From NCBI GenBank assembly GCA_017628025.1, contig JAGBZX010000018.1:4786-68785 (forward strand): DNA of 64,000 nucleotides, written 5' to 3'. The stretch is from Kiritimatiellia bacterium (GTDB lineage: Bacteria > Verrucomicrobiota > Kiritimatiellia > RFP12 > UBA1067). Shown piece by piece: positions 4,507 through 32,745 of this stretch. The stretch's first letter is position 1. Every line of letters starts with the position of its first letter. The notes under the pieces are model-generated. The model did not search any database. It was not told the DNA's origin and was given only the letters and a program-made list of their open reading frames with translations. The position numbers and the translations under genes are program-made.

Positions 4507-7500
4507 TTATCTGATCATTACTTGGAAACCTTCCGGCCAGACAATTTTTCCACCGTCGCCAGTTACGATTGTATTCGCCGCGATACGCTCCTCGTAATTC
4601 CCGCCTGTCCAACCTTTACCACCTTTATGGTCACGCGAAAGAAGTTTTATTTTACTCGAATTCAAATAAACCTTTGCGTTTGATGCCTTTAAAACCATAT
4701 CCTTCAACACAAGGGTAGATCCAATCTTCCATGTATCATTCTTGACCGTTATAGAATTACCACCAGAAATAATTACACGAACCTTTCTGTATTCCGAAAG
4801 ATTATCATTGGACATAGGAATATAAACCGTTCCTGAAGTATTATACGCTTGGTCGATAAATAGCTCCCCAACGCCTGAACCATCCTCTCGGTAGTATGTT
4901 CCGCCTGTATATCCACCTGCACTAATGGATACCCCATAATCACTCCATCCAATGCGCTCAGTTTGGTAAATCGCAATTCTTCCAGCAGAAGAATGCTGCG
5001 CCCAACCATCACCAGCCGTCGATCGAACTGAAATTGAACCAGCACCTTTTACACTAGCTCCAGAAACCCATACACTTCCGCCAGTACCAGGAGCATAACT
5101 AACAACCGACGAGCCAGCTTTTATTTCGCAATCCAACACGACATGCCCATCTGCAATTAGCCTAAATGCGCCGCCGCCGTGTGCACCAGCCGCATAACCA
5201 TGAGATCCCAAAGAAAATGGATGCAATATTGATCCGTATGGTTTATTACCTGCTTGAGACCCCAATCCTGCAAAAGCAGAGCCGCCCGTACCGCCTGCAG
5301 TCCTCCCTGGACCAATCGCGCCACTACCAAAGCCTTTATTCTCAATATTTACCGAAGAACCAGCCTCTAAAGTCGCATCACCTGCAACTTCAAAGTTGAG
5401 CTTATACACCTCCTTATTACCAGAAGTAGTCGCACCGTGCGTCAATGTTACCCCTCTTTCAAGAAGAAAATCTCCATCGATTTCGTTAGGGCTCGCCCAA
5501 TAACCGAAAGAGCACGTCGCTCCAGAGAGCATATAAAGCCCTCCTGCGATATCATGCTTATAATTCGACGTGAAATTAACCGTTCCACCGTCGCCGCCAA
5601 TGACGATTTCTCCTGTTGCTAAGTTACTAGACGTATTGACGGTCCAAGTTACGCCTGATGCAGGACATATACAAATCTGTGTTTCTGCTTGCGGAACTAT
5701 CCCGTTCGCCCAACAAGACTCAGTCGAAAACCCTGTCCCGCCGCCAATCCATTCTGCGGCAGCCGCAGGAGAAAAGTCGCAATTAAGGCTATTCCCGTTG
5801 CCATCGGTAGAAAGCGCCCCGAGTTTGATATCCGCGCCCAAAGACGCGTCGCAATTCGATAGAACTACGCCTCTCAGATGCTGCGGACCTGTAACTTTCA
5901 AATTCCATGGACCAGTCGAGCCAACTGAAAGCACATGGTCATACGCGCCGCTCTCTCCGACAAGACCGAAAAGCGAAAGATGATATACCTCTACAGTCTG
6001 TCCCGCGGCAAACGCGAGCGATAGGGGATTGGTCACGCGAGAAAGGAAGTGCCGCGCCTTAAAGCCGTTTTCAAACTCAATCGACCCGCCAGATTTAGCC
6101 ACAGTTATCCGCGAATACGAATTATTCCCCAAATCCACTTTCTGATAGCCGTCACCTTCAAACTTCAGAACATCATCCACCCCGAATGTCATCGTACCCA
6201 AAGACGAAAAGGCGTTTGTGACGATAAGATCTCCTCCTGAAAGCGTAATTGCCGCGCCCGCTTCATTCGTGAGCGAGTTCACGACTGTGTTGTTCGCTAT
6301 CAATGGATAACGATCGCGACCGCTAGGAATTAAAATACAATTCTCTTCATTCGGAACCATCATAGGATTCCAATTGCCAGCGTCAGTCCACGATGTACTT
6401 ATGTTACCAGTCCACTCAACAAGATCGCCAGGCTTTGAAGATGCCATAATTGACCAACCGATATTGTTGCCCAAGTCAACTCCGTCTTCATCAAGCGGCA
6501 TCATACCGGACGAAGCGTCAGAATCTTTTACATCACAATAAGAGATTGATACCGTCGCATCTGGCTCAATGGAAAGTTGCCACTGCGAATCGTCCGTCTT
6601 TGAGAGAAGATTAATTGCATTGCCCTCTTCACCCGCGAGTGATAAACTTCCTTTAGAAAGAATGGTTGTTTTGTTTCCTGATCCTTCCCCGAAGCGGATC
6701 GTCTTTCCGGGGGTTGTACAAGACAACGAAAAGAATTTGTTCGCGCCTTCAATTACAGCATCTTCGGGCCCCTCGAAAGTAACCTTCGACCCCTCCTCGC
6801 AACTAAACTTCCCCTTCAGAGTGCAAAGGCGCTTCGTTATCCTAAGATTTGCACCACTTGGAAGTTTTAAATGTGCACCATTAGTAACGATAACTGTCCC
6901 GAACACCTCGTTGCGGTCAATAACAAGTGAATCCATAGAAGTAGCACAATAATAGCTAGTTGGAGTAATATTACCGCTATCAATTAAAAGCGTACCCTCC
7001 CCATACACGTCACCGGCATGTTCAAGATATATCGTTCCACATCCAGCTTTCGTCGTGGCGCAACCATACGCCTTTACGGAGCCTTTGAATGCGTCGAACG
7101 AGTCTGCCACGGATTGGCGTATTGAAATACGACCGCCACCAGCGCCCGAAGAGCTCGTAACGCGTCCAGCCGATGCATCTATTGTTCCTTTACCAGAGAT
7201 AGAGCCGACTTTTAAGTATATACTCCCGCCAGTGCCGTTGTAGTAGTTCAAGCCCGCCTTACTAAGGACAGAAATCGTCCCATCAACTACTAGTTCACCA
7301 GCCACCTCAAGATACACTGCTCCGCCAGCCTTATATGACTCATTATTCCCACTATTTCCAGCGCCTCCCAAATCCTTCGGTTCACGTATAGACCCCCAAC
7401 AGCGCCTACTGGTAAGTTGATTACTATGACCTCCTACACCACCATAAGCAGGTTGATTAACGAGGTTACCTGTACCTATAGAACCGAAAGTTGCTCCATC

Positions 7501-9243
7501 AAAAGGCCCCTTCAAATCACCATTGACGCTGGCTCCAGAAGCTATATTCATCGTAGAGCACTTAAGACAAAGTTTGTACTGATTAGACTTGTTATTGTTA
7601 ATGCGGTGCGTCAATGTAGCGCCGCGAGCAACAGTTACCTTGCCAGCGACCTTGTTTAACTCAACTCCGTTACAGAAATTAACCGTTGGGTAAGCTTTTC
7701 CTTCGCCGCCGCCCACAATAAATTCGCCAATGTCCAAAGGTGAATTCACCGTAACGGTATAAGCCGAAGCCTTATTAGGCAGTATTACAATGGAATTTGC
7801 GCCAGGAACAACACCAAGACTCCAATTGGCGGCATCTTCGAAATTACCCGAGCCGCCCGTCCATATATTAAGTTCATCCGATGCAATGCTTGAGCAGGTA
7901 ATGGAGCACTGCGATTCAACAACAGGAATATCAAAAGATATTGAGGAATTATCCATTTCATTCATTACCGCGCCTGCTGGCAAGTTACCCCAAGTGAAGT
8001 ATGCATGATCTCCCTCTGATACATTGCGCGCGTATACCGTCACATTAGACGTTGCAAAGACATTAGGAAGTTGAATTGAAGAACCCCAATTCTCGCCATC
8101 AAAAGAAAATTCCGTATTTTCATCGCTAGATGACACAGCAAGATTAAACCTCGCCGCTTTACAAGTAATTTCAAGATCTTCTGGCGGGTTTTTAAATTGA
8201 ACTTGAGAATTGTTCTTATCAAGGAATTCAGCATCTGAGGGAAGCCCAGACCAGATAAAATGCGCTCCTTCAAAAACTGAATTTTGAGCTTTGATGGTAA
8301 CGGTAGAGGCATTTTCTACATCGTCTGCAACAATACTCGAGTGCCATGTTTCGCCATCGAAAGAAAGTTCCGTCTCGCTGTCAGCCGCCGAACAAGCAAC
8401 CGTTGTCTTAACACCAATTCCGAGAAAACGCTCTCTGTCAATTGCAAGGTTTGTGGCAATTTCCTCTGCGGTCAACTCCCTATTATAAAACCTTATGGCA
8501 TAAAGTCGCATTTTAGCACTAGTATTATTTGCCGCGCAACCAAGCCACACCGTATTCTTTGTGGGATCTGTCGATCCACCTTTGTTAGTGAGAATTACAT
8601 CTCCATCATCAATACTAAGGCTGGCACCTGTAGTAGAATTGATTCTTATGTTAAGTAAAATATCCTTATTTATGTATGATGATGTACTAATGCTAGGACA
8701 TGCCGACGCTTTGCCTGGGAAACTGGTACCATTTCTATACTGAAGGCCTCCTATTGCCCCATTCTTACAAATTGTATTATCTTCTCTTTGGTCGAGAATA
8801 AGTTGGCGGTAATTATTGCCGCCACCGACGGAAAGATAACCGCTAAACTTTAAATATGCTTCTGGCCGCACAAAAATCTGCACTGTCATCGCCTTATCTT
8901 TTAAAGCAGTTAAGATCGGGGCACTTGCTATCGAATAATACGCTTTAGCTCCTGCACCAGCAAAAGAAAGATATGTATCTTTTATAGATATGGTACCCGA
9001 CTTCGATGCTCCTGATCCAGAAACGATATCTTTCCATGTAGTGGCGGAAGCATTATGGATATCTCCTTGTTCGGCACTCCAGCCTGCATTCGCAATTGCA
9101 TCAAACTGAGCGATAAGTCCGTCTTGCACATAGTTCTTAACCGTCTTATCACCGTATGCAAGCACATTATTAGCCGTAAAGATAAGTATAATCCCTATAG
9201 CAAACCTACTCACAGAACAAAAGGATTTTATGATATTATTCAT
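4507..9243 (-). CDS. Giant secreted surface protein (1578 aa): signal peptide, LamG/concanavalin-like domain, two Ig-like repeats, and duplicated beta-helix-type modules
   Basis: The signal peptide ends ..NNVLA/YGD. The LamG-like region spans aa 35-275 (YVQDGLIAQFDAIANAG..RLYAIRFYNRELTAEEI). Two ~85-aa tandem repeats cover aa 277-450. Modules begin W-x-G-G-x-G-x-F...NW..G-x-VP at aa 460, 944 and 1165. The C-terminus is ..EGFQVMIR. An SD (AAAGGAAGAG) precedes the ATG. Confidence 0.9.
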   Translation of the reverse strand: MNNIIKSFCSVSRFAIGIILIFTANNVLAYGDKTVKNYVQDGLIAQFDAIANAGWSAEQGDIHNASATTWKDIVSGSGASKSGTISIKDTYLSFAGAGAKAYYSIASAPILTALKDKAMTVQIFVRPEAYLKFSGYLSVGGGNNYRQLILDQREDNTICKNGAIGGLQYRNGTSFPGKASACPSISTSSYINKDILLNIRINSTTGASLSIDDGDVILTNKGGSTDPTKNTVWLGCAANNTSAKMRLYAIRFYNRELTAEEIATNLAIDRERFLGIGVKTTVACSAADSETELSFDGETWHSSIVADDVENASTVTIKAQNSVFEGAHFIWSGLPSDAEFLDKNNSQVQFKNPPEDLEITCKAARFNLAVSSSDENTEFSFDGENWGSSIQLPNVFATSNVTVYARNVSEGDHAYFTWGNLPAGAVMNEMDNSSISFDIPVVESQCSITCSSIASDELNIWTGGSGNFEDAANWSLGVVPGANSIVILPNKASAYTVTVNSPLDIGEFIVGGGEGKAYPTVNFCNGVELNKVAGKVTVARGATLTHRINNNKSNQYKLCLKCSTMNIASGASVNGDLKGPFDGATFGSIGTGNLVNQPAYGGVGGHSNQLTSRRCWGSIREPKDLGGAGNSGNNESYKAGGAVYLEVAGELVVDGTISVLSKAGLNYYNGTGGSIYLKVGSISGKGTIDASAGRVTSSSGAGGGRISIRQSVADSFDAFKGSVKAYGCATTKAGCGTIYLEHAGDVYGEGTLLIDSGNITPTSYYCATSMDSLVIDRNEVFGTVIVTNGAHLKLPSGANLRITKRLCTLKGKFSCEEGSKVTFEGPEDAVIEGANKFFSLSCTTPGKTIRFGEGSGNKTTILSKGSLSLAGEEGNAINLLSKTDDSQWQLSIEPDATVSISYCDVKDSDASSGMMPLDEDGVDLGNNIGWSIMASSKPGDLVEWTGNISTSWTDAGNWNPMMVPNEENCILIPSGRDRYPLIANNTVVNSLTNEAGAAITLSGGDLIVTNAFSSLGTMTFGVDDVLKFEGDGYQKVDLGNNSYSRITVAKSGGSIEFENGFKARHFLSRVTNPLSLAFAAGQTVEVYHLSLFGLVGESGAYDHVLSVGSTGPWNLKVTGPQHLRGVVLSNCDASLGADIKLGALSTDGNGNSLNCDFSPAAAAEWIGGGTGFSTESCWANGIVPQAETQICICPASGVTWTVNTSSNLATGEIVIGGDGGTVNFTSNYKHDIAGGLYMLSGATCSFGYWASPNEIDGDFLLERGVTLTHGATTSGNKEVYKLNFEVAGDATLEAGSSVNIENKGFGSGAIGPGRTAGGTGGSAFAGLGSQAGNKPYGSILHPFSLGSHGYAAGAHGGGAFRLIADGHVVLDCEIKAGSSVVSYAPGTGGSVWVSGASVKGAGSISVRSTAGDGWAQHSSAGRIAIYQTERIGWSDYGVSISAGGYTGGTYYREDGSGVGELFIDQAYNTSGTVYIPMSNDNLSEYRKVRVIISGGNSITVKNDTWKIGSTLVLKDMVLKASNAKVYLNSSKIKLLSRDHKGGKGWTGGNYEERIAANTIVTGDGGKIVWPEGFQVMIR

Positions 9244-9276: not shown

Positions 9277-9306
9277 ATTATAGCATTTACCCCCCCCCCC
9301 TGTCAA
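9277..9306 (-). promoter_or_regulatory. Sigma70-type promoter with a G11 homopolymer in the spacer (candidate phase-variable promoter of the giant protein gene)
   Basis: The minus strand reads TTGACA (9301-9306), G x11 (9290-9300), TAAATGC, then TATAAT (9277-9282). The spacer is 18 nt and TGC-TATAAT forms an extended -10. The promoter lies 34 nt upstream of the ATG. Confidence 0.7.
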
Positions 9307-23699: not shown

Positions 23700-25859
23700 T
23701 TATCTGACTATAACCGAAAGACCGTAAACTTTATCTAAGCAAAACTTTATATTATCCAATGCGGAATGAGCAAAATTTCCTGGATTCTTGCCATCTGTTG
23801 AATCATTATCACTAATTGAACTTATTAGCAATACGAATCGCAACTTGTAAACACCAGGCTTTTTGACTCTGCAATATGACTCATATTGCTTATCCCAGAC
23901 TCGATTCTTGTCATATTGATGCACCATTTGGCCAAGAGAAATTTCTTTACCATCTTCATCAACAAGAAGAACATTAATCACCCACTTTGAATTAACAACT
24001 CGAGTATTATGGTATCCGGCAGAACCGATACAAGAAAACTTATATTCTCCTTTATCTGTTACTCTAACATCTGTCTCTATAACAGCATCTGTTCTCCCAT
24101 TAATATAATTATTTCCAGCCATAATAGCAGAAAGACCTTTTGCGTTATAAGTCTTTATCCCTGTATTAGTACACCCTTCCTTTTGGGCGGCCAAAATTCC
24201 TGTAAAACATATTGTTTTTGTCCCTTCTTTAACAATCGTCCAAGATCCAGCTGTCAATCGGTCAAAATTCCGAATTATATCTTTGCTGTGCGAAGAATTG
24301 TTATTTATTTCGAAATCACCATTTAAAATTAAATTATCCTTTTTATGAGCTGAAAAATACGCGTTAATCGTCATTGGTGCAGCAACGGCGGTAATTAATT
24401 TACTTTGCTCTATCAAACGCTGAGTTCCGTCTCCCCAACCGCCCCAGCCGACAAAGTTATCCATAGATGCAATTGCTACATTAATAGTATCTCCTTCTCT
24501 ATACCAGCCGGATTTATCTTCAACAAGGCTGCCTCTTTCGCATGAAGTTACTGTTGAAACATAATATTCTTTTATGAATTTCCATTTAAGAACAACGCCT
24601 TTATTTTCGCCTATCGCATACTGAACGGTGTCTGCAGTGCTTTGGTTATCTCTGTAATCATCTGCATATTCATCTATCAACACTGTTTCATCTTTATTCC
24701 AAAGTTCACAGCCTACACACACAGCTCGAACGCCTTCACTAACATCAGAAAACCTAGGAAAAGTATACTCGCCGCTACTTGGAAGTATTGGATATAACCC
24801 ATAAGTAATATCAGGCGAACCAAACTTTTCTGTAGTACTATCTATTACAATTCCTTGGAAATCATCATCGTTAAGCGCATATCTCAACACAACGATGCCA
24901 CTACCGCCGGAGCCGCCTCTGTTTGCCCCGCGTCCGCCGCCGCCACCGCCACCTGTAGAAGCTTCACCAGAATAAGCAGCTGAGTTGTATGTATCATTAT
25001 AACCACCGCCCTTGCCACCTCCTCCTTTTCCTCCATTTCCGCGATATGCGTTATAATAATTATAAGAACCGCCGCCACCGCCGCCAGCATACCAAGTTTC
25101 CACACCAACAATATACGAGGATCGTCCGTTACCACCATGACCTATACCGCTAGAACTTCCAACAGAAGTCCCGCCGCCGCCTGCGCCGCCGCCGCCTGCG
25201 CCAGGTGAATTACCTGATGTAGAAAAAGTTCTATTTCCACCATTGTTTCCTTGATCAGGTATTCCTGCTCCTCCTTGAGACGCATCATATGCCAGGCTAC
25301 CACTCGTACCAGCTCCACCTCCGCCGCTACCTCCATCAGAACCATTTGCGGCTTCTTTAGAAATTGCAGATCCACCAGCTCCGCCGCCGTAAGCAATTAT
25401 AGCATCTTGTCCGACCGCTGTAATTGAGGAATCTGCTCCATTTTTTGCCAGAGTTGAGCCTCCACCGGTAGCACCTGAACCACCTGCACCAACAACTATA
25501 TTTAAATCGGTATTTGCAGAAATACCGGTAAGAATACCTGTAAGCATGCCACCAGCGCCGCCACCGCCACCACCACCAGATGAAGCGCCGCCGCCGCCAC
25601 CACCGCCGGCAACGACTAGATAATTAATTATGCCTTCTTTAATGCCGGCGGGAACTTGCCAAGTGTGAGGATTTGTCTCATCGGCAACAGCTGTAAACGC
25701 TACAACATACTCAAGCGTTCCGTTTGGCAATAACAACGCCTGTGTGTAGCCGTTATCAGTAGTAACTTTCTGAGCAAAATATTTTGCCGCTATAGGTTCT
25801 TCAGCAACTACGGTAGAAGCGATAATAACCGCTGGAAGGAAAGAACGCAGATATTTCAT
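23700..25859 (-). CDS. Glycine-rich secreted surface protein, paralog B (719 aa)
   Basis: The signal peptide is MKYLRSFLPAVIIASTVVA/EEP with an AAAGGAG SD 8 nt upstream. The track start at 25886 is a GTG extension. Architecture: conserved N-terminal beta segment (..HTWQVPAG..YLVVAGGGGGGG), ~260-aa Gly-run domain ending GSGIVVLRY, an InlB-B-repeat-like segment (WYREGDTINV..FVGWGG..INAYF), a divergent jelly-roll-like C-terminal domain starting DNLILNGDFE, and the tail GLSVIVR. Confidence 0.85.
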   Translation of the reverse strand: MKYLRSFLPAVIIASTVVAEEPIAAKYFAQKVTTDNGYTQALLLPNGTLEYVVAFTAVADETNPHTWQVPAGIKEGIINYLVVAGGGGGGGASSGGGGGGGAGGMLTGILTGISANTDLNIVVGAGGSGATGGGSTLAKNGADSSITAVGQDAIIAYGGGAGGSAISKEAANGSDGGSGGGGAGTSGSLAYDASQGGAGIPDQGNNGGNRTFSTSGNSPGAGGGGAGGGGTSVGSSSGIGHGGNGRSSYIVGVETWYAGGGGGGSYNYYNAYRGNGGKGGGGKGGGYNDTYNSAAYSGEASTGGGGGGGRGANRGGSGGSGIVVLRYALNDDDFQGIVIDSTTEKFGSPDITYGLYPILPSSGEYTFPRFSDVSEGVRAVCVGCELWNKDETVLIDEYADDYRDNQSTADTVQYAIGENKGVVLKWKFIKEYYVSTVTSCERGSLVEDKSGWYREGDTINVAIASMDNFVGWGGWGDGTQRLIEQSKLITAVAAPMTINAYFSAHKKDNLILNGDFEINNNSSHSKDIIRNFDRLTAGSWTIVKEGTKTICFTGILAAQKEGCTNTGIKTYNAKGLSAIMAGNNYINGRTDAVIETDVRVTDKGEYKFSCIGSAGYHNTRVVNSKWVINVLLVDEDGKEISLGQMVHQYDKNRVWDKQYESYCRVKKPGVYKLRFVLLISSISDNDSTDGKNPGNFAHSALDNIKFCLDKVYGLSVIVR

Positions 25860-25889
25860 AGCTAATACTCCTTTTATAAATTTCACATC

Positions 25890-25918
25890 ATTTTATCATT
25901 TACCCCCCCCCCTGTCAA
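25890..25918 (-). promoter_or_regulatory. Sigma70-type promoter with a G10 homopolymer spacer (paralog B)
   Basis: The minus strand reads TTGACA (25913-25918), G x10 (25903-25912), TAAATGA, then TAAAAT (25890-25895). The spacer is 17 nt and TGA-TAAAAT forms an extended -10. Confidence 0.7.
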
Positions 25919-25944
25919 GAACTTCAAAACCGAAACAAAAATAG

Positions 25945-25968
25945 AAAAGTAGGTCTGACCTACTTTTT
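25945..25968. terminator. Bidirectional hairpin flanked by an A-run and a T-run (second terminator after paralog C)
   Basis: AAAAGTAGGTCTGACCTACTTTTT is palindromic around the centre. It is conserved at 28806-28832. Confidence 0.5.
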
Positions 25969-26009
25969 GATTTTTGAAAACTCATTTTAGAAAAAACTCA
26001 TAACGAAAC

Positions 26010-26042
26010 AAAACTCCCGCCCAAAATCAGGACGAGAGTTTT
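26010..26042 (-). terminator. Rho-independent terminator of paralog C
   Basis: The minus-strand RNA is CUCUCGUCC-UGAUUUU-GGGCGGGAG, a 9-bp stem including 2 G-U pairs. It is followed by UUUUGUUUCGUU and starts 25 nt after the stop codon. Confidence 0.7.
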
Positions 26043-26066
26043 ATTTAGCTTAGTCTCTTACCTTAC

Positions 26067-28637
26067 TTATCTGACCATGAGCGCGAAGCCACAACGCTTG
26101 TCAAGGCAAAGCGAGATGTTATCAAGCCCCATTGAAAGAGTATTATAAGTACCAATTCGAGACTCTTTTGGTATGGTAAATTTCAATTTATAAGCGCCTC
26201 CCTTTGGGATATTAAACTGCTGCACTTGTGATTTCCAGTTACTTTGACCAATATCTTTAACATCAAACTCTCCAATAGAAATTATCCTATCAGAATTATT
26301 TTTATCAACAAGCTCTACTTTTACTTTCCACTCATTATTTGCTATATTACTAGTATTCGCGCCTCTTACTAACATACAAGAGAATGTATAAAGCCCCCCA
26401 CAATGAGGATTTACATCACATGAAACACACCCTTCATCTCCATCATATAAGGTAGTCAGCTGCAGAGAAAGCCCTGTAAGTCCATACGATCTAATATTGG
26501 TACCATATGATAAATTATTGTGTGAAGAGATTATTCCACACACAAAATAACTACTTCCTGCATTCTGCTCTATATTCCAAGATCCGGCATTTAATAGTCT
26601 GAGGCTTCCTATAACATCCAGCTGACTAATATATTCTACATGTTGTTCAAAATCACCATTTAAAACAAGATTATCTTTAATATTTTGAGTAAAATATGCC
26701 GTTGCAACAATAGGTTTATTTTTAACTACTACTTCAGCCTGCGCCTCGCTTGGGCATCCGCCAGAAAAGAACCCACCCCAACCTTTAAAGCCTACGGTAG
26801 AAGCAACTTCAAGAGTTATCTCATCTCCAGTCTTATACCAACCAGACTTATTCTCTTTTAATGCACCATTACCTTCAACAACAGTCGAAACATAATACTC
26901 TTCACGCCATTTCCATGTTAAAAGAACCGGTTCTTCAAATTGAACAGAGGCTGAGACATTCCCGTTTTGTGCCTCGCTTACCGGGAAAACTTCAGATGTA
27001 ACACCTGTTGAAAATGAAGTAAGCGTATAACCTACACAATGTTGACGGATTGTTTCTGTTACCTCTGTAAATTCCGGAGCATAAAGTGTATAAGTGCTTC
27101 CAACGCTTGAATACGAAGCAAAATGATCTTCCAAAGAACCATTTATTGCAAATCCGTCATAACTAACCGTAATCCCACTAGGAATGAAAAATGCCTTGAT
27201 AGTTGTAGGTTTCGATTCAACCGTAAATGCATACTCATTTGAGGTATTCTCTAAATCCACACCATCTTTTTGCCATTTGCCCAAACTATAGTTAAATCCA
27301 GGAGTTGCTACGATAGTCATCAATGTACCTGAACTATAATAGCCAGTTGACACATTAAACGTGCCTTCTCTATCTTTTTCGATAGTAACTAAATAGCGAA
27401 GCTCCCACTGCCATTCAAGTGTAGATCCAGCACAAGAAGAATCAAGTATTGCCTTTAAATTAGTCTCACCTTCCGCAAGAGTCCCAGAAGAGCGAATAAG
27501 TTCTCCTGATGAACCATAAAGTTTCCACCCTGTGCAATACGCCCTTACACCATCTTCTACTTGTACATACTCTTGACAAGAATACTCATTTGCAGGAATT
27601 TCTTCATAAGCGCCATAAGCAGGAACAGGTGTGCCATAAGAGCCGCCAAAAGAAGAAATAATAATACCAGACGAAACATCTACTTTTGCGTAACGCAATA
27701 TAACAATACCACTACCACCAGCTCCGCCATCCTTTGATGCATGACCGCCCCCGCCTCCACCACCGAGACCATTCGTTCCGGGGTTGCCAACAGTAGCGTA
27801 GCCTATTTTCTTATCAGAGGTTCCTCCACCTCCATCGCCACCTCCACCAAGTCCTCCAGAACCAGAAGAATTATAAGTACTCGAATAACCAGCACCACCG
27901 CCGCCGCCACCATAATAAATTTCAGTACCAGTAATAGAAGATTTCCGGCCGTTCCCACCAGAGAACCCTGTAGCAGGCGCTCCTGCACCGCCACCGCCAT
28001 AACCTCTTGAATTGCCACCCATTGCGACCCTACCATATCCATTATTACCCTGTCCTTCAAATCCATTTCCTCCAGGAGCTGGATAACTCCTTGATGCACC
28101 TGCAGCCGTTCCCGCACCACCGCCGCCACTGCCGCCATCAGCACCACCAAACAAATCTTTCAAGTTCGCATCATTATAAATACCGCCGCCACCACCGCCT
28201 CCATAACTAGTCACCTTTCTTAATCCAAAAGCAATGTATGAATCCCCTCCATTTGAACCACGAATAGAACCGAGACCATGTTTCACTCCTCCTGCACCAC
28301 CGTCTCCTACTTTAATCTCAATTTCTTGATTGGGACTAACCGAGGAAGTCTCTTCTATCATACCGCCGCCACCACCACCGCCACCATGGTAGTATCCACC
28401 ACCGCCACCTCCGGCAACAACAAGATATTCCATAGAATACACACCAGACGGCACTGTAAATGAATGAGGCGTCGATGTATCAGTAAAAGCAACGACATAC
28501 TCTGTCTTCCCCTCTGCCGTTACAACTTCATTCGACCAGCCGCCTTCGATTTCAAACGGACCAGAAACAGATACATCTTGTGCATTAATAAAAGAAAATA
28601 CCGATATTCCAAGCGAAAAAACTATGCTCTTTTTCAT
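26067..28637 (-). CDS. Glycine-rich secreted surface protein, paralog C (856 aa)
   Basis: The signal peptide is MKKSIVFSLGISVFSFINA/QDV with a GGAGG SD. It has the same architecture as B and D, plus additional InlB-B-repeat-like modules (..GKWQKDGVDL..IKAFF, ..FKGWGG..ATAYF). The Gly-run domain spans aa 57-316 and ends GSGIVILRY. The C-terminal domain starts DNLVLNGDFE and the tail is GFALMVR. Confidence 0.9.
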   Translation of the reverse strand: MKKSIVFSLGISVFSFINAQDVSVSGPFEIEGGWSNEVVTAEGKTEYVVAFTDTSTPHSFTVPSGVYSMEYLVVAGGGGGGYYHGGGGGGGGMIEETSSVSPNQEIEIKVGDGGAGGVKHGLGSIRGSNGGDSYIAFGLRKVTSYGGGGGGGIYNDANLKDLFGGADGGSGGGGAGTAAGASRSYPAPGGNGFEGQGNNGYGRVAMGGNSRGYGGGGAGAPATGFSGGNGRKSSITGTEIYYGGGGGGAGYSSTYNSSGSGGLGGGGDGGGGTSDKKIGYATVGNPGTNGLGGGGGGGHASKDGGAGGSGIVILRYAKVDVSSGIIISSFGGSYGTPVPAYGAYEEIPANEYSCQEYVQVEDGVRAYCTGWKLYGSSGELIRSSGTLAEGETNLKAILDSSCAGSTLEWQWELRYLVTIEKDREGTFNVSTGYYSSGTLMTIVATPGFNYSLGKWQKDGVDLENTSNEYAFTVESKPTTIKAFFIPSGITVSYDGFAINGSLEDHFASYSSVGSTYTLYAPEFTEVTETIRQHCVGYTLTSFSTGVTSEVFPVSEAQNGNVSASVQFEEPVLLTWKWREEYYVSTVVEGNGALKENKSGWYKTGDEITLEVASTVGFKGWGGFFSGGCPSEAQAEVVVKNKPIVATAYFTQNIKDNLVLNGDFEQHVEYISQLDVIGSLRLLNAGSWNIEQNAGSSYFVCGIISSHNNLSYGTNIRSYGLTGLSLQLTTLYDGDEGCVSCDVNPHCGGLYTFSCMLVRGANTSNIANNEWKVKVELVDKNNSDRIISIGEFDVKDIGQSNWKSQVQQFNIPKGGAYKLKFTIPKESRIGTYNTLSMGLDNISLCLDKRCGFALMVR

Positions 28638-28667
28638 AAAACCCTCCTACAACAATTATTCTTAGGT

Positions 28668-28696
28668 ATAATATCATTTACCCCCCCCCCTGTCAA
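28668..28696 (-). promoter_or_regulatory. Sigma70-type promoter with a G10 homopolymer spacer (paralog C)
   Basis: The minus strand reads TTGACA (28691-28696), G x10 (28681-28690), TAAATGA, then TATTAT (28668-28673). The spacer is 17 nt. Confidence 0.7.
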
Positions 28697-28805
28697 TGCC
28701 AAAGTTTTGTACCATTATTTCAATTTGCAGGTCTATCACCAAAAGGGCCTACGTGGGCGAATATACGGCTCGAATCAGCTCTTACGGCGATGCCGTTGAC
28801 AAAAT

Positions 28806-28832
28806 AAAAAAGTAGGTCTGACCTACTTTTTT
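28806..28832. terminator. Bidirectional hairpin flanked by an A-run and a T-run (second terminator after paralog D)
   Basis: AAAAAAGTAGGTCTGACCTACTTTTTT is a near-identical copy of 25945-25968. Confidence 0.5.
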
Positions 28833-28871
28833 ATTTTTGAAAACTCATTTTAGAAAAACTCCTAACGAAAC

Positions 28872-28904
28872 AAAACTCCCGCCCAAATTTAGGACGAGAG
28901 TTTT
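28872..28904 (-). terminator. Rho-independent terminator of paralog D
   Basis: It has the same 9-bp stem as 26010-42 (CUCUCGUCC/GGGCGGGAG). The only differences between the two copies fall in the loop (CUAAAUUU vs CUGAUUUU). A U-tract follows. Confidence 0.7.
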
Positions 28905-28928
28905 ATTTAGCTTAGTCTCTTACCTTAC

Positions 28929-31085
28929 TTATCTAACCATGAGCGCGAAGCCAAAACGCTTTTTAAGTTTAAGCATGAGGTTGTCTATCGCTGAATGAGC
29001 ATTAACATTATCGTTAACATCATTTTTGTATACCTTAGATCTTTCTATTTTAAATATCAATTTATAAATTCCGCCTTTTCGAATTTGAATTTCAAAAGGA
29101 TAATTTGCCTTAGAAGCATTATCTTTTTGAAGGATATTACAAACATTTACCTCTTCACCACTTCCATTTTTTTGTAAATAAACACTTATCTCCCATGTTG
29201 TTGCATTTACATCACCTGGATCTGCATCAAATGATAAATCATAAAGACCTGAACACGGTATATTGACATAACAACTTATTGATGCAGTTCCTGAGTAGTT
29301 AGTGTTTTTTCCTTTTGTCCCTATAATTCCTGAATGATTACCACTTATGACCTTTGAGCCAGAGTTTGCTACACCTGTCGATCTAGCACTTAATAATCCT
29401 GTTGGATAGGATGTATAAGAATTTTGTGTAGATTCCCATATTCCTCCTATTAAACGAGAAAATGTCGTATCTATCGTCGTAGAATCGCTAGTATTTCCAC
29501 TCATTTCAAAATCGCCATTAAGTACCAAATTATCTTTATTATGCGCTGTAAAGTAAGCGGTAATTGTCATTGGTGCAGCAACAACTTCAATTGTTTTACT
29601 TGGCTCAATTGAACGATCTGCGTTAATTCCCCAGCCGCCCCAGCCGATAAAGTTGTCCATAGAGGTAATTGCTACTTGAATAGTATCGCCTGCTCTATAC
29701 CAACCGGATTTGTCTGCAACAAGGCTGCCTCTCTCGCAAGAAGCTACAGTTGAAACATAATATTCTTTTTCAAATTTCCATTTAAGGATAACGCCTTTTT
29801 CAGAATCGTTCCTTGTGAAAGTAATCGTTTTTGATAAATCAGTTTCTTCGTATGGAGGATTTTCCGAATCAAAAGTATCAGACCTGATTAGATACTCTTC
29901 ACCTTCTTCATTCCTACCATAAAGTTCCCAACCAATACAAGTAGCCCTTGCACCTTCGCTAAGTACCGTATATTTCGGACAAGTAAATGCGCTATTACTC
30001 GGTAGTTCCTTGTAAATATCATAAGCAGGACTTGGTGTACCAAACTTCTCAGTAGTAGAATCAACTGCAATACCTTGGAAATTATCGTTATTAAGCGCAT
30101 ATCTCAACACAACAATGCCGCTATCGCCTGAGCCGCCCGATCGGTAACCTCTCGCGCCACCGCCACCACCGCCTGTAGAAGCAGTTCCCGACCCTCCATT
30201 ACCTACTGGTTCATTGCTTATATTACCGCCAGCGCCACCTCCGCCAGCGCCACCAAGACCATTATTATCAATCGAGTTACCATAGGTACCGCCGCCACCA
30301 CCACCAGCATACCGAACCTGTGCACCAGTGATATAAGAATATCTACCATCCCCACCATGCCCTCGATTATTGGTATTAGCAGTTGTAATCGTAATTCCTG
30401 CCATCCCTGCTCCGCCACCTCCTGCTCCTGGTCTATTTTGGGTAGTATCCGAGGTTCTGTTACCACCTGCAAAACCTTGTCCTTCCACGCAAGTTCCACC
30501 AGTTGTTGGTAATTTAGCTGAACTGCCACTTGTTCCAGCAGCACCGCCACCACTGCCACCAGCTGAACCATTAGCAACATCTTGAGAATATGCAGAGCCT
30601 CCAGCACCACCACCAATGGCAATTATATCAGTCGCCCCTTTAATAAAGGAATCTTCACCATTATTTGCTACTTTATTTGCACTAGAACCGCCGCCACCAC
30701 CAGCGCCAACAACAATAGTTAAATCAGTACTTTCAGAAATACTATTAAGCGTGCCTGTAAGCATACCGCCACCGCCGCCGCCACCGCCGCCACCACCAGA
30801 GGATGCATTATTACCAGTACCGCCACCGCCACCACCGGCGACGACTAGATAATCAATTTTGCTGTCTTTAACATTGGCGGGAACTTGCCAAGTGTGAGGA
30901 TTTGATTCATCATTAACAGTTGTAAATGCAACGACATATTCAAGTGTTCCATCGGGCAACAACAATGTCTGCGTGTACCCGCTATCAGTCGTTTCTTTTT
31001 GAGCAAAATATTGTGCCGCCGTAGGCTCTGCAAGAACAGAAGAAGCAACAAAAAATACCGAGACAAACGAAAGCAACAATTTCAT
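28929..31085 (-). CDS. Glycine-rich secreted surface protein, paralog D (718 aa)
   Basis: I prefer the start at 31085 (MKLLLSFVSVFFVASSVLA/EPT) with a GGAGG SD 8 nt upstream. The track ORF runs on to 31412 through non-coding-looking sequence. D is close to B in the N-terminal, Gly-run and B-repeat parts. Its C-terminal domain (from DNLVLNGDFE) is strongly divergent, and the tail is GFALMVR. Confidence 0.85.
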   Translation of the reverse strand: MKLLLSFVSVFFVASSVLAEPTAAQYFAQKETTDSGYTQTLLLPDGTLEYVVAFTTVNDESNPHTWQVPANVKDSKIDYLVVAGGGGGGTGNNASSGGGGGGGGGGGMLTGTLNSISESTDLTIVVGAGGGGGSSANKVANNGEDSFIKGATDIIAIGGGAGGSAYSQDVANGSAGGSGGGAAGTSGSSAKLPTTGGTCVEGQGFAGGNRTSDTTQNRPGAGGGGAGMAGITITTANTNNRGHGGDGRYSYITGAQVRYAGGGGGGTYGNSIDNNGLGGAGGGGAGGNISNEPVGNGGSGTASTGGGGGGARGYRSGGSGDSGIVVLRYALNNDNFQGIAVDSTTEKFGTPSPAYDIYKELPSNSAFTCPKYTVLSEGARATCIGWELYGRNEEGEEYLIRSDTFDSENPPYEETDLSKTITFTRNDSEKGVILKWKFEKEYYVSTVASCERGSLVADKSGWYRAGDTIQVAITSMDNFIGWGGWGINADRSIEPSKTIEVVAAPMTITAYFTAHNKDNLVLNGDFEMSGNTSDSTTIDTTFSRLIGGIWESTQNSYTSYPTGLLSARSTGVANSGSKVISGNHSGIIGTKGKNTNYSGTASISCYVNIPCSGLYDLSFDADPGDVNATTWEISVYLQKNGSGEEVNVCNILQKDNASKANYPFEIQIRKGGIYKLIFKIERSKVYKNDVNDNVNAHSAIDNLMLKLKKRFGFALMVR

Positions 31086-31110: not shown

Positions 31111-31141
31111 ATTTTATCATTTACCCCCCCCCTGGTGTCAA
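31111..31141 (-). promoter_or_regulatory. Sigma70-type promoter with a CCA+G9 spacer (paralog D), 19-nt spacing
   Basis: The minus strand reads TTGACA (31136-31141), CCA, G x9 (31124-31132), TAAATGA, then TAAAAT (31111-31116). The spacer is 19 nt. Confidence 0.6.
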
Positions 31142-31254: not shown

Positions 31255-31291
31255 AGCTTTCGCATAGCGAGTCTCAAGAGTCCGAGCCGCA
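31255..31291. repeat. 37-bp perfect direct repeat, copy 1
   Basis: AGCTTTCGCATAGCGAGTCTCAAGAGTCCGAGCCGCA is identical to 31773-31809. Confidence 0.9.
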
Positions 31292-31772: not shown

Positions 31773-31809
31773 AGCTTTCGCATAGCGAGTCTCAAGAGTC
31801 CGAGCCGCA
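31773..31809. repeat. 37-bp perfect direct repeat, copy 2
   Basis: It is identical to 31255-31291 and lies 518 bp away in the same orientation. Confidence 0.9.
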
Positions 31810-31842: not shown

Positions 31843-32745
31843 TTAAGGTCTTGGATGGAACCTGCGATGCATCTCGCCAAATTTGCGCTCGTCAATATGA
31901 GTATATATCTGAGTTGTGCCAATATCTGCATGACCAAGCATCTCTTGTATCGCTCTTATATCAGCGCCATGTTGCAACATATGCGACGCAAATGAATGCC
32001 TCAAAACGTGTGGCGAAATTCTATTAGCCGAGATTCCTGCAATAGCAGCTCTTTCTCTAAGCAACTTAAAAATACCCTGCCGCGTAAATGGTCGACCTAA
32101 ACGAGTTACAAAAAGGATACTCTCAAACTCCGGTAACTTTGGAAACGTAGGTCTAGACTTATCTAAATAATTACAAAGCGCATTTCCAGCAGCATTGCCT
32201 AACGGTATTAATCTCTCTTTTGAACCCTTACCCATTACACGCAAAAGCTCTCCATCGGCTACTATATCATCTAGTCTTATTGCACAAAGCTCTGACACTC
32301 TAAGCCCACAGCCATACAAAAACTCTATTATCGCCCTATCCCTTAGAGATCTAGGGTCTTCTGCCGTAATTAATTCTATAAGATTTTGCGTTTCATCCTC
32401 TGAAAGAACTCGTGGCAATACACGAGCTCTCCTTGATGACTCAATAAGCTCAGAAGGTGCTGTTTTCAAAACGCCTTGAGAGACTAGAAAACTAAAAAAA
32501 CCTCTTAATGCTGCTACTCTTCTCGTGCGTGTCGCAGAAGACTTACCTTCATCTCGCTCTACTTCAAGAAATTGAGTTATATCAGAACGAACAACTTCTG
32601 AAGATTCTGTCTTTGCGCGCTTTGAAAGAAAATCTCTAAAAAACGACAAATCACTTGAATACGCCAACGACGTATTCGAAGACAAGCCTTTTTCCAAAAG
32701 CAACGAGGCAACAAAATCTGCAATATCGTCTTTTAATAAACCCAT
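31843..32745 (-). CDS. xerD: Tyrosine site-specific recombinase, XerD/XerC type
   Basis: The catalytic region is HVLRHSFASHMLQHGADIRAIQEMLGHADIGTTQIYTHI, with GLRVSELCAIRLDDI and GKGSKERLIPLG. The 300-aa length is typical of Xer and lacks an integron-integrase insertion. Confidence 0.75.
   Translation of the reverse strand: MGLLKDDIADFVASLLLEKGLSSNTSLAYSSDLSFFRDFLSKRAKTESSEVVRSDITQFLEVERDEGKSSATRTRRVAALRGFFSFLVSQGVLKTAPSELIESSRRARVLPRVLSEDETQNLIELITAEDPRSLRDRAIIEFLYGCGLRVSELCAIRLDDIVADGELLRVMGKGSKERLIPLGNAAGNALCNYLDKSRPTFPKLPEFESILFVTRLGRPFTRQGIFKLLRERAAIAGISANRISPHVLRHSFASHMLQHGADIRAIQEMLGHADIGTTQIYTHIDERKFGEMHRRFHPRP

What the first reader, a model, noticed from the sequence alone, without database searches (positions are those of the whole stretch)
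24879..25664. About 260-aa domain built from ~11 glycine runs separated by short variable linkers: possible polyglycine-II (PGII) lattice
All three paralogs share this region (B nt 24879-25664, C 27690-28469, D 30102-30893). It starts after a conserved beta-like segment (HTWQVPAG..YLVVAGGGGGGG in B; HSFTVPSGVYSMEYLVVAGGGGGG in C). It ends with GGSG(G/D)SGIV(V/I)LRY. In between are blocks such as GGGGGGGAGG, VGAGGSG, YGGGAGGS, DGGSGGGGAG, PGAGGGGAGGGG, GHGGNGR, YAGGGGGGSY and STGGGGGGGRG. This is not collagen-like, because there is no G-X-Y periodicity. It is not RTX-like, because there is no GGxGxD nonapeptide and Sec signal peptides are present. Known proteins with separated Gly runs of this kind include the phage S16 gp38 tail-fibre adhesin, the ALK/LTK glycine-rich domain, the Pfam Gly_rich family and snow-flea antifreeze protein. 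These fold into lattices of PGII helices that display variable loops. A PGII scaffold on phase-variable bacterial surface proteins would be unusual. The Gly runs use mixed GGN codons with only short (GGC)4 or (GGT)3 repeats, so the coding region avoids homopolymers. This contrasts with the pure G runs in the promoters.
Basis: partly seen in the sequence, partly recalled or inferred. Interest (0 to 1): 0.7.

Follow-up and report, generated by a model that had tools for sequence, protein, structure and literature searches.

The report
Polyglycine-lattice binding domain in variable surface proteins
Three neighbouring secreted proteins of an uncultured gut-type bacterium each carry a known glycine-rich domain also found in phage tail fibres and the human ALK receptor, so the finding is real but is an ordinary member of a very large family.

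Summary
Paralogs B, C and D each contain a 260-264 aa segment that is 34-37% glycine, with 9-11 runs of at least three Gly in conserved positions.

- **Family:** all three match Pfam PF21722 (Gly_rich_2) almost end to end (E 1e-21 to 1e-24). They do not match PF12810.
- **Fold:** AlphaFold2 gives a confident model (pLDDT 93.8, pTM 0.92). About ten beta strands frame long ordered segments that are neither helix nor strand.
- **Structural neighbours:** the significant solved matches (Foldseek E up to about 0.05) are the Bxb1 phage tail tip, the cyanophage Pam3 tail fibre gp24, and the LTK/ALK TNF-like plus glycine-rich domains.
- **Scaffold and loops:** twelve Gly motifs are conserved across the family, several as GxGGxG. 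The linkers between them are hypervariable.
- **Abundance:** a profile search finds about 46,000 cluster representatives.

The context is more interesting than the domain. The genes have poly-G tracts in their promoter spacers whose length varies between assemblies. Their modules are shuffled between strains. They share a seven-residue C-terminal tail.

Verdict: new member of a known kind, modest interest.

The parts
23700..25859 (-). Gene B. Encodes 719 aa from MKYLRSF; the range includes the stop codon.
   Evidence: ORF list. The same 719-aa sequence is called in other assemblies, and a 99% identical protein, P0001, is on a related contig.
25800..25859 (-). Putative Sec signal peptide of B (aa 1-20, MKYLRSFLPAVIIASTVVAE).
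   Evidence: Read directly from the sequence. No predictor was run, so this is inferred.
24873..25715 (-). Gly_rich_2 domain of B (aa 49-329): a beta framework plus 12 conserved Gly motifs. The Pfam envelope is 24879-25670.
   Evidence: Pfam PF21722, E 3.5e-22, model positions 5-225 of 226. AF2 pLDDT 93.8. Foldseek hits to Bxb1, Pam3 and LTK/ALK. Motif map.
24354..24770 (-). Middle all-beta region of B (aa 364-502). It corresponds to the region that carries an InlB B-repeat-like (Flg_new_2) module in C.
   Evidence: AF2 model of the C-terminal part shows strands only, with pLDDT about 60-84. No Pfam hit in B itself.
23724..24335 (-). C-terminal beta-sandwich of B (aa 509-712), starting at NLILNGDFE. 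Resembles carbohydrate-binding modules.
   Evidence: AF2 pLDDT about 65-89 here. Foldseek hits to CBM4, CBM16, other CBMs, MAM and ephrin-receptor ligand-binding domains, with target-normalised TM 0.5-0.6 for the single-domain targets. Moderate confidence.
23703..23723 (-). C-terminal tail GLSVIVR. It lies outside the predicted fold and is shared by the four poly-G-promoter genes.
   Evidence: Motif scan. pLDDT is below 50 for the last five residues. Homologues carry similar tails.
25890..25918 (-). Promoter of B: TTGACA, then G10 + TAAATGA as a 17-nt spacer, then TAAAAT with an extended -10 TG. The G10 tract is at 25903-25912.
   Evidence: Top-scoring promoter-like site, 11 of 12 matches. Tract is G9 in L004 and G10 in L001 and L003.
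26067..28637 (-). Gene C (856 aa).
   Evidence: ORF list. An identical protein is on at least five other contigs.
27690..28469 (-). Gly_rich_2 domain of C (Pfam envelope, aa 57-316).
   Evidence: PF21722, E 2.3e-21.
27186..27395 (-). Flg_new_2 (divergent InlB B-repeat) module of C (aa 415-484).
   Evidence: PF18998, E 4.7e-11.
28668..28696 (-). Promoter of C: TTGACA, G10 + TAAATGA (17 nt), TATTAT. The G10 tract is at 28681-28690.
   Evidence: Promoter scan, 11 of 12 matches. The same protein sits behind G9, G10 or G11 in L006, L005 and L004.
28929..31085 (-). Gene D (718 aa from MKLLLSF). The longer GTG-started ORF reaching 31412 is probably not used.
   Evidence: ORF list. The 718-aa form is the cluster representative. 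The promoter and ribosome-binding site lie just upstream of 31085.
30099..30899 (-). Gly_rich_2 domain of D (Pfam envelope, aa 63-329).
   Evidence: PF21722, E 1.3e-24.
31111..31141 (-). Promoter-like element of D: TTGACA, CCA + G9 + TAAATGA (19-nt spacer), TAAAAT. The G9 tract is at 31124-31132.
   Evidence: The 16-18-nt promoter scan does not list it, which fits an out-of-range spacer.

Best explanation
The ~260-aa glycine-rich segment is a complete Gly_rich_2 (Pfam PF21722) domain.

**Proposed structure.** About ten beta strands form a TNF-like sandwich at the N-terminus, the C-terminus and a few internal points. Long excursions leave this sandwich, and their twelve conserved Gly motifs pack side by side as extended three-residue-per-turn (polyglycine-II type) helices. 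Only glycine fits in the core of such a lattice. Outer helices tolerate a side chain at every third position, which gives GxGGxG patterns. The lattice acts as a rigid, sequence-invariant scaffold. The short linkers joining the helices are free to vary in sequence and length and form the exposed binding surface, as in the phage receptor-binding proteins Pam3 gp24 and S16 gp38 and in the ALK/LTK ligand-binding region.

**Proposed role here.** The domain sits at the mature N-terminus of three Sec-exported paralogs. It is followed by beta modules and a CBM-like beta-sandwich, and each protein ends in a short shared C-terminal tail. Each gene has a promoter whose -35/-10 spacing is set by a poly-G tract. 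The most likely function is a family of switchable, recombining surface or secreted binding proteins (adhesins or glycan/ligand binders) in an uncultured Lentisphaerae/Kiritimatiellae-type bacterium.

**Status of each step**
- Shown: family membership, a confident predicted fold, conserved motifs with variable linkers, poly-G length polymorphism, and module shuffling.
- Inferred: PGII geometry, the binding function, surface location and ON/OFF switching.
For: **Family**
- PF21722 matches all three proteins at 77-88 bits against a 24.3-bit cut-off, covering model positions 5-225 of 226.
- 1,412 homologues, and all 120 listed carry PF21722. The domain aligns end to end wherever it sits in the host protein.
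- 46,394 representatives at E up to 1e-3.
- PHROG phrog_2295 at E 1e-39 to 1e-51, plus weaker tail-protein PHROGs.

**Fold**
- AF2 with a 50-sequence alignment gives pLDDT 93.8 and pTM 0.92. Strands lie only at residues 6-11, 21-24, 29-39, 61-66, 74-78, 100-104, 110-112, 202-204, 211-213 and 278-285. The Gly motifs are ordered but neither helix nor strand.
- Foldseek against the PDB: 9D93 chain Q, E 3e-6 (target-normalised TM 0.50-0.58); Pam3 fibre 7YPX, E 2e-4; LTK 7NX1, E 9e-4; ALK 7LS0/7LIR/7NX3, about 1e-3. After the ALK entries the E-values jump to about 1.
- BFVD: 276 hits, with query-normalised TM up to 0.81.
- A sequence profile against PDB sequences finds only the Pam3 fibre (E 0.015). 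That alignment pairs the N-terminal '..L.VvaGGGgGG' and the C-terminal 'GiviirY' strands.

**Periodicity and variability**
- Twelve Gly motifs have 0.69 bits of column entropy against 2.44 elsewhere.
- Family Gly-frequency patterns are GxGGxG or GGxGGxG in motifs 3, 8 and 12, with a related GxGGxGGGGxG in motif 10.
- Among six close relatives the motifs are 65-100% identical. Linkers 1-2, 7-8, 9-10 and 10-11 are 24-44% identical and vary in length.

**Literature**
- Pam3 gp24 has 12 glycine-rich motifs in a four-layer lattice with a variable distal tip (PMC9608196).
- gp38 PGII helices carry hypervariable loops that set host range (PMC6851490).

**Context**
- Poly-G promoter tracts and their length polymorphism.
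- Mosaic modules between strains.
- CBM-like C-terminal domain.
Against: - PGII dihedrals and hexagonal packing were not measured, because no coordinates were available. The structural argument rests on a prediction plus Foldseek.
- Global TM-scores to ALK/LTK are low (0.22-0.31) and to Pam3 moderate (about 0.4). The similarity is partial.
- PF12810, the ALK-type model, does not match.
- No experiment on any cellular bacterial member was found, so the binding function is by analogy.
- Trimerisation, which the phage fibres need, is unknown here.
- The C-terminal model is only moderately confident (pLDDT 66).
- Signal peptides and the role of the tail are unverified.
Confidence: 0.75

Rival explanations
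1. The region is an intrinsically disordered, low-complexity glycine-rich spacer (a flexible linker or condensate-type segment), and the HMM hits merely reflect composition.
For: - The segment is 34-37% Gly and has no helix or strand over most of its length.
- Single-sequence searches of the PDB return only compositional matches to engineered Gly linkers.
Against: - AF2 pLDDT is 93.8, with no segment below 50.
- 35 columns are invariant across 50 sequences that are 40-64% identical to the query, and non-Gly framework positions (L37, V38, V39, V79, I206, Y213, V279) are invariant or nearly so.
- The domain aligns end to end in every listed homologue regardless of context.
- Foldseek hits are specific to one fold class.
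Confidence: 0.03
2. The genes are phage tail-fibre or receptor-binding genes (a prophage remnant or domesticated tail module), not cellular surface proteins.
For: - The best solved and predicted structural matches are phage tail proteins.
- PHROG tail families match weakly.
- A tyrosine recombinase gene lies next to D at 31843-32745.
Against: - Each protein has an N-terminal signal-peptide-like sequence.
- The flanking genes are housekeeping: glycogen phosphorylase, LpxI/LpxB, AsmA, RND efflux and OEP. No capsid, tail or terminase genes appear in the annotated neighbourhoods.
- The same locus is kept in at least three other assemblies.
- The promoter and the C-terminal tail are shared with an unrelated 1,578-aa protein 14 kb away.
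- The recombinase has the XerD-type domain pair.
Confidence: 0.07
3. The domain is folded, but the Gly motifs adopt some other arrangement (for example a beta-roll or beta-helix, or ordinary beta-hairpins). On this view the PGII lattice is an over-reading of a prediction trained on ALK and gp38.
For: - No dihedral angles could be computed.
- The Pam3 authors themselves describe the motif dihedrals as 'close to beta-sheet' (PMC9608196).
- DSSP marks isolated bridge residues within the Gly regions.
Against: - There are no GGxGxD or Ca-binding motifs and no RTX Pfam hit.
- The three-residue periodicity of tolerated side chains fits a three-residue-per-turn helix better than a two-residue beta repeat.
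- All-Gly motifs of 6-8 residues are invariant, as expected where no side chain fits.
- The only matching solved folds are glycine lattices.
Confidence: 0.1
4. The flat glycine lattice itself is the functional surface (for example ice or mineral binding, as in snow-flea antifreeze protein), rather than a scaffold for loops.
For: Snow-flea antifreeze proteins are PGII bundles that use a flat face (10.1101/2023.11.25.568672; PMC10235112).
Against: - No antifreeze protein appears among the Foldseek hits.
- The architecture is a TNF-like sandwich plus lattice, not a free two-layer bundle.
- Variation is concentrated in the linkers, as in receptor-binding proteins.
- Close relatives occur with CBM-like and adhesin-type modules.
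Confidence: 0.02

Closest known systems
Pfam PF21722 Gly_rich_2, which NCBI names 'glycine-rich domain-containing protein'
   Same: All three paralogs match nearly the full model, far above the gathering score. All 120 homologues listed carry the same Pfam assignment.
   Different: Nothing at the domain level; these are members. The host-protein architecture (signal peptide, Gly_rich_2, beta modules, CBM-like sandwich, seven-residue tail) and the poly-G promoters are specific to this lineage.
Cyanophage Pam3 tail fibre gp24 (PDB 7YPX/7YFW): TNF-like plus glycine-rich domain
   Same: - Foldseek E 2e-4.
- It is the only solved protein that the sequence profile reaches (E 0.015), aligning both terminal strands and the Gly motifs.
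- It also has 12 glycine-rich motifs, a conserved stem and a variable tip (PMC9608196).
   Different: gp24 is a trimeric virion fibre with an N-terminal helical shaft, and it needs the chaperone gp25. Its glycine-rich part is about 125 aa. The proteins here are Sec-exported cellular proteins with the domain at the N-terminus. Their domain is larger (about 280 aa) and their oligomeric state is unknown.
Mycobacteriophage Bxb1 tail-tip protein, PDB 9D93 chains Qa/Qb ('polyglycine-rich domains' on the central fibre)
   Same: Best solved-structure match: E 3e-6 to 1e-5, target-normalised TM 0.50-0.58, 23-25% identity. Polyglycine-rich domains of Bxb1 are mentioned in PMC13252515.
   Different: It is a virion component of a phage that infects a mycolate-walled host. 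A role in lipid interaction has been proposed for such domains. I could not read the primary Bxb1 paper.
ALK/LTK extracellular TNF-like plus glycine-rich region (PDB 7NX1, 7LS0, 7LIR; Pfam PF12810)
   Same: Same fold class: a beta sandwich bearing a multilayer polyglycine-II honeycomb (10.1101/2023.11.25.568672). Foldseek E about 1e-3 with probability 0.97-1.0. Both are extracellular ligand-binding modules.
   Different: PF12810 does not match. TM is only 0.22-0.31. No sequence-level hit appears even with a profile. ALK/LTK are metazoan receptor kinases with the cytokine ligands ALKAL1/2.
Salmonella phage S16 gp38 'polyglycine sandwich' (PDB 6F45)
   Same: Same principle: glycine-rich motifs form PGII helices in a layered lattice, joined by hypervariable segments that set specificity (PMC6851490). 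The Pam3 authors report similarity between gp24 and gp38 (PMC9608196).
   Different: It is not among my listed Foldseek hits. The lattice grows out of a beta-helix rather than a TNF-like sandwich, and has 10 motifs in three layers.
Phase-variable promoters with a homopolymer in the -35/-10 spacer (for example Neisseria porA poly-G and opc poly-C; from my own knowledge)
   Same: A G9-G11 tract lies between TTGACA and an extended -10 element. G10 gives the optimal 17-nt spacing. Tract length differs between assemblies that encode identical proteins.
   Different: Switching of expression was not shown. The organism is an uncultured PVC-group bacterium. Four genes share the same promoter cassette.

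Membership tests
Pfam PF21722 Gly_rich_2 | Whole-protein score above the curated gathering score, with near-complete model coverage. | tested here: met
   79.9, 77.3 and 87.9 bits against a 24.3-bit cut-off; model positions 5-225 of 226 in B, C and D.
Pfam PF21722 Gly_rich_2 | Gly motifs and hydrophobic framework residues in register with other family members. | tested here: met
   35 invariant and 31 nearly invariant columns in a 50-sequence alignment. End-to-end HMM alignment to all 120 listed homologues.
TNF-like plus glycine-rich lattice fold (Pam3 gp24, Bxb1 9D93 chain Q, ALK/LTK) | A beta-sandwich framework whose inter-strand excursions carry the glycine-rich motifs. | tested here: met
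   In the AF2 model about ten strands flank and interrupt ordered non-helix, non-strand Gly segments; pLDDT 93.8. This is a prediction, not an experiment.
TNF-like plus glycine-rich lattice fold (Pam3 gp24, Bxb1 9D93 chain Q, ALK/LTK) | Significant structural similarity to solved members. | tested here: met
   Foldseek E 3e-6 (9D93 chain Q), 2e-4 (7YPX), 9e-4 (7NX1) and about 1e-3 (ALK). Every match with E up to about 0.05 is of this class. Global TM is only 0.22-0.58, so the match is partial.
TNF-like plus glycine-rich lattice fold (Pam3 gp24, Bxb1 9D93 chain Q, ALK/LTK) | Gly motifs with PPII/PGII backbone angles, packed about 4.8-5 A apart with inter-helix main-chain hydrogen bonds. | not testable with these tools
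   Model coordinates are not exposed; /data holds only FASTA files. The only indirect support is the three-residue periodicity of non-Gly positions.
TNF-like plus glycine-rich lattice fold (Pam3 gp24, Bxb1 9D93 chain Q, ALK/LTK) | Conserved glycine scaffold with hypervariable connecting segments. | tested here: met
   Entropy is 0.69 bits in the motifs against 2.44 elsewhere. Linkers are 24-57% identical with length variation, against 65-100% for the motifs, among six close relatives.
Pfam PF12810 Gly_rich (ALK/LTK type) | HMM match. | tested here: not met
   No PF12810 hit at E up to 1 for B, C or D. A profile search of PDB sequences did not reach ALK or LTK.
RTX / beta-roll calcium-binding repeats | Tandem GGxGxDxUx nonapeptides. 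| tested here: not met
   No GGxGxD occurs in B, C or D, and there is no HemolysinCabind Pfam hit.
Collagen-like triple helix | Long (G-X-Y)n periodicity. | tested here: not met
   The longest (G-nonG-nonG)n is 2-3 repeats.
Promoter-spacer homopolymer phase variation | A homopolymeric tract between the -35 and -10 hexamers that sets the spacer length. | tested here: met
   TTGACA-G10-TAAATGA-TAAAAT/TATTAT with a 17-nt spacer and an extended -10 TG. These are the top two promoter-like sites in the region.
Promoter-spacer homopolymer phase variation | Tract length polymorphic between otherwise identical alleles. | tested here: met
   An identical 856-aa C protein sits behind G9 (L006), G10 (L005 and the window) and G11 (L004). 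B has G9 in L004 and G10 elsewhere. Assembly error at homopolymers cannot be excluded.
Promoter-spacer homopolymer phase variation | Expression switches with tract length. | not testable with these tools
   Needs reporter fusions or paired metagenome and metatranscriptome reads.

The most novel reading that the evidence does not exclude
The three genes, together with the unrelated gene A, form a previously undescribed contingency locus in gut-type Lentisphaerae/Kiritimatiellae. In this reading the proteins are surface proteins that are switched individually by poly-G promoter spacers and diversified by cassette-like exchange of a phage-type polyglycine-lattice receptor-binding domain and a CBM-like domain. 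They would be targeted or anchored by a new ultra-short C-terminal signal, G-hydrophobic-x-three hydrophobic residues-Arg at the carboxyl end. The Gly_rich_2 module would then be a shared currency between phage tail fibres and the surface proteins of their hosts.
Probability: 0.3. Interest if true: 0.55.

Novelty: new member of a known kind. Interest (0 to 1): 0.3.

Why it matters
The glycine lattice is one of the few protein architectures built from neither alpha helices nor beta sheets. Experimental knowledge of it comes from a handful of phage fibres, ALK/LTK and antifreeze proteins.

This locus shows that the same module is used by cellular bacteria at the exposed end of exported proteins that are variable and probably switchable. 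That fits the view that the lattice is a general rigid scaffold for displaying evolvable binding loops. It also gives a compact, high-confidence bacterial example, about 280 aa with a deep alignment, for biophysical work or protein design.

It does not open a new question, because the family is already curated and very large. The promoter switch, the module shuffling and the short C-terminal tail are the parts most worth following up.

Tried and rejected
- **Single-sequence search of PDB sequences.** It returned only engineered Gly-linker constructs and 3C proteases at E above 0.003. I rejected these as compositional matches.
- **NCBIfam scan.** No family matched, so no curated C-terminal sorting-signal model covers the tail.
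- **GTDB genome scans.** The full protein found no relatives. The domain alignment found one weak Bifidobacterium MAG hit, because the degenerate pattern saturated. Neither scan helped with taxonomy.
- **Cluster look-up.** It gave no organism names. A housekeeping protein search gave one named relative, a Lentisphaerae MAG at 77% identity.
- **Rfam scan of the window.** It found only two tRNAs and nothing in the locus.
- **Pfam on the C-terminal halves of B and on protein A.** Nothing significant.
- **The extra gene in L001 and L003.** This 717-aa gene sits among the paralogs but is unrelated to A-D and is not glycine-rich. It is an insertion, not a fourth family member.
- **Primary Bxb1 structure paper.** It could not be read.
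- **Model coordinates.** I looked for them in order to measure dihedrals, but they are not exposed.
- **RTX and collagen readings.** Rejected by motif counts.
Full report
**What is there**

The region holds three tandem minus-strand genes:
- B, 23700-25859, 719 aa
- C, 26067-28637, 856 aa
- D, 28929-31085, 718 aa

They are paralogs, 39-53% identical overall. They contain 11, 9 and 9 runs of at least three Gly. Other genes of the window average 7.1% Gly, and the chance probability of the enrichment in B is about 6e-43. The quoted flanking motifs are present, with C reading GGAGGSG rather than GGSGGSG. There is no RTX nonapeptide and no collagen periodicity. The codon claim also holds: Gly codons are mixed, GGG is avoided, and no G homopolymer exceeds 5 nt inside the coding region.

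**Family**

All three proteins match Pfam PF21722 (Gly_rich_2) at 77-88 bits against a 24.3-bit cut-off, covering model positions 5-225 of 226. NCBIfam has nothing.

A search of the 5.8-billion-sequence collection returned 1,412 homologues. All 120 listed carry PF21722. They have many architectures, including FN3, LamG, cadherin, CBM and sigma-70 fusions, and some are named 'glycine-rich domain-containing protein'. An HMM built from B, C and D aligns end to end to all 120 listed hits, wherever the domain sits in the host protein. It therefore behaves as a discrete mobile module.

A profile search of 1.84 billion cluster representatives found 46,394 proteins at E up to 1e-3 and 7,601 at E up to 1e-30. 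Some giant proteins carry up to 20 matched stretches. PHROGs places the domain in phrog_2295 (E 1e-39 to 1e-51) and, more weakly, in tail-protein families. The family is large and already curated.

**Fold**

I modelled B residues 45-335 with AlphaFold2 and a 50-sequence domain alignment (A1). The model has mean pLDDT 93.8 and pTM 0.92, with no segment below 50. Strands occur only at model residues 6-11, 21-24, 29-39, 61-66, 74-78, 100-104, 110-112, 202-204, 211-213 and 278-285. The Gly motifs are confidently placed but are neither helix nor strand.

Foldseek against the PDB gave one coherent set of hits:
- Mycobacteriophage Bxb1 tail tip 9D93 chains Qa/Qb: E 3e-6 to 1e-5, target-normalised TM 0.50-0.58
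- Cyanophage Pam3 fibre 7YPX/7YFW: E 2e-4 to 1e-3
- LTK 7NX1: E 9e-4
- Many ALK entries (7LS0, 7LIR, 7NX3, 7N00): E about 1e-3 to 5e-2

After these the E-values jump to about 1. Against predicted viral structures there were 276 hits at E up to 1e-3, with query-normalised TM up to 0.81. Most are 'glycine-rich domain-containing proteins' of cyanophages, pelagiphages, prasinoviruses and a haloarchaeal virus. The sequence profile reaches only the Pam3 fibre among solved structures (E 0.015), and that alignment pairs both terminal strands.

**What the literature says about these folds**

- The Pam3 paper describes gp24 as a TNF-like domain whose strands extend into a glycine-rich domain. It has 12 glycine-rich motifs stacked in a four-layer lattice with a variable distal tip. 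The authors report similarity to S16 gp38 and C. elegans ALK (PMC9608196).
- gp38 has 10 motifs forming PGII helices joined by hypervariable segments that set host range (PMC6851490).
- ALK is described as a multilayer PPII honeycomb (10.1101/2023.11.25.568672).

**Sequence-level support for the lattice**

In the family alignment I find twelve conserved Gly motifs in B, the same number as in Pam3 gp24. Their mean column entropy is 0.69 bits against 2.44 bits elsewhere.

Several motifs tolerate a side chain only at every third position. B has GAGGSG, GHGGNG, GNGGKG and GSGGSG, with the same family-wide pattern in motifs 3, 8 and 12 and a related one in motif 10. This is what a three-residue-per-turn helix with one exposed face predicts. 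The all-Gly motifs are nearly invariant, as expected where no side chain fits.

Among the six closest relatives the motifs are 65-100% identical. Linkers 1-2, 7-8, 9-10 and 10-11 are only 24-44% identical and vary in length.

I could not measure dihedral angles or packing, because model coordinates are not exposed. PGII geometry therefore remains inferred.

**Host proteins and locus**

Each protein starts with a signal-peptide-like sequence, and the Gly_rich_2 domain follows directly. C has an extra InlB B-repeat-like module.

The C-terminal 391 aa of B model as all-beta with only moderate confidence (pLDDT 66). The last ~200 aa begin at NLILNGDFE and resemble CBM4, CBM16 and other carbohydrate-binding sandwiches, as well as MAM and ephrin-receptor ligand-binding domains.

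All three proteins end in G[FL]x[LV][MI][VI]R. So does an unrelated 1,578-aa protein, A, at 4507-9243. This tail lies outside the predicted fold.

All four genes share a promoter of the form TTGACA - Gn - TAAATGA - TA(A/T)(A/T)AT with an extended -10 TG. The B and C copies have G10, which gives a 17-nt spacer, and they are the two best promoter-like sites in the region. D has CCA + G9, giving 19 nt, and falls outside the scan range.

Independent assemblies that encode the identical C protein carry G9, G10 or G11. B carries G9 or G10. In one related strain the tracts of two genes are interrupted by substitutions.

Sliding-window identity shows module shuffling between strains. B and P0002 share a 100% identical signal peptide and a 96-100% identical middle region, but their other parts diverge. 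D and P0003 share a 100% identical C-terminal domain. D and P0005 share a mostly 94-100% identical N-terminal two-thirds.

Neighbouring genes are housekeeping: XerD-type recombinase, RND efflux, a TPR protein, a LolA-like protein, AsmA, glycogen phosphorylase and Lpx genes. The same neighbours are present in related contigs, and no phage structural genes are annotated.

The only named relative of the glycogen phosphorylase is a Lentisphaerae MAG at 77% identity. Named Gly_rich_2 homologues with similar tails come from Kiritimatiellia.

**Interpretation**

The segment is a bona fide Gly_rich_2 domain. Most likely it is a TNF-like sandwich carrying a polyglycine-II-type lattice that serves as an invariant scaffold for variable binding loops. 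It sits at the exposed end of exported binding proteins that are probably phase-variable and that recombine between strains.

I rate the three levels of the claim separately:
- Family membership: about 0.95
- The lattice fold: about 0.8
- The binding or adhesin role: about 0.5

The rivals are each unlikely for the reasons given in their entries. They are a disordered spacer, prophage fibre genes, a non-PGII fold and an ice-binding surface.

**Novelty and score**

It is a Pfam family with tens of thousands of representatives and solved relatives. This is a new member of a known kind, and I score interest at 0.3. The context features deserve more follow-up than the domain itself: the poly-G spacer switch shared by four genes, the cassette shuffling and the seven-residue C-terminal tail.

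Noticed in passing
window 25903-25912, 28681-28690, 31124-31132, 9290-9300 (minus strand); L004 3496, 5941, 8720; L005 64; L006 64: Four genes (B, C, D and the unrelated gene A) share a promoter cassette, TTGACA-Gn-TAAATGA-TAWWAT, with an extended -10 TG. G10 gives the optimal 17-nt spacer. An identical C protein sits behind G9, G10 or G11 in different assemblies, and B behind G9 or G10. In L001 two of the tracts are interrupted (GGTTTGGTGT and GGGCTGGGCGTG), as if locked.
   Followed up: yes
window 23703-23723, 26070-26090, 28932-28952, 4510-4530 (minus strand): A seven-residue C-terminal tail, G[FL]x[LV][MI][VI]R at the carboxyl end, occurs in exactly the four poly-G-promoter proteins among window ORFs of at least 150 aa. 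Related tails (for example GTVFMMR, GFVYYLR, GLLIMLR) end many Kiritimatiellae-type Gly_rich_2 homologues, sometimes directly after the domain. AF2 leaves the tail unstructured. No NCBIfam sorting-signal model matches. It may be a lineage-specific sorting or anchoring signal.
   Followed up: partly
window 23700-31085 compared with P0002-P0005 (contigs of related strains): Family members are mosaics. Signal peptide, Gly_rich_2 domain, middle region and C-terminal sandwich are each 94-100% identical in some pairs and 16-50% identical in others, which indicates cassette-like recombination between paralogs or strains.
   Followed up: partly
window 4507-9243 (minus strand): Protein A (1,578 aa) has a signal peptide and is long and probably beta-helix-like, with no significant Pfam hit. 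It shares the poly-G promoter (G11, 18-nt spacer) and the C-terminal tail with B, C and D, but shares no homologous domain with them.
   Followed up: partly
L001 7735-9888; L003 3529-5682; L001 6963: Related strains carry an extra, unrelated 717-aa secreted protein gene between the C and B orthologues. It is not glycine-rich, lacks the tail and has no BLAST similarity to A-D. A stray copy of the promoter cassette with an interrupted tract (GGGGGAGGG) lies upstream, ahead of a 49-aa ORF.
   Followed up: partly
window 31255-31291 and 31773-31809: A perfect 37-nt direct repeat, 518 bp apart, plus a 33-nt repeat family, lies in a relatively GC-rich non-coding stretch between the XerD-type recombinase gene and gene D. 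Its function is unknown.
   Followed up: no
window 25965-26123 and 28827-28985: The intergenic segments downstream of C and D are 83% identical over 159 nt. They include a bidirectional hairpin terminator (25944-25968), so the paralogs were duplicated together with their terminator and promoter cassettes.
   Followed up: no
P0013, P0015, P0020, P0080, P0108 (homologues): These proteins combine an ECF sigma-70 domain, one transmembrane helix near residue 180-200, a linker, a second signal-peptide-like stretch, a Gly_rich_2 domain and the short C-terminal tail. They may be real sigma/sensor fusions that use the domain as an extracytoplasmic ligand-binding module, or they may be merged gene calls.
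   Followed up: partly
P0135-P0148: Giant proteins of 3,000-7,300 aa carry 5-20 matched Gly_rich_2 stretches, so the domain also occurs as long tandem arrays.
   Followed up: no
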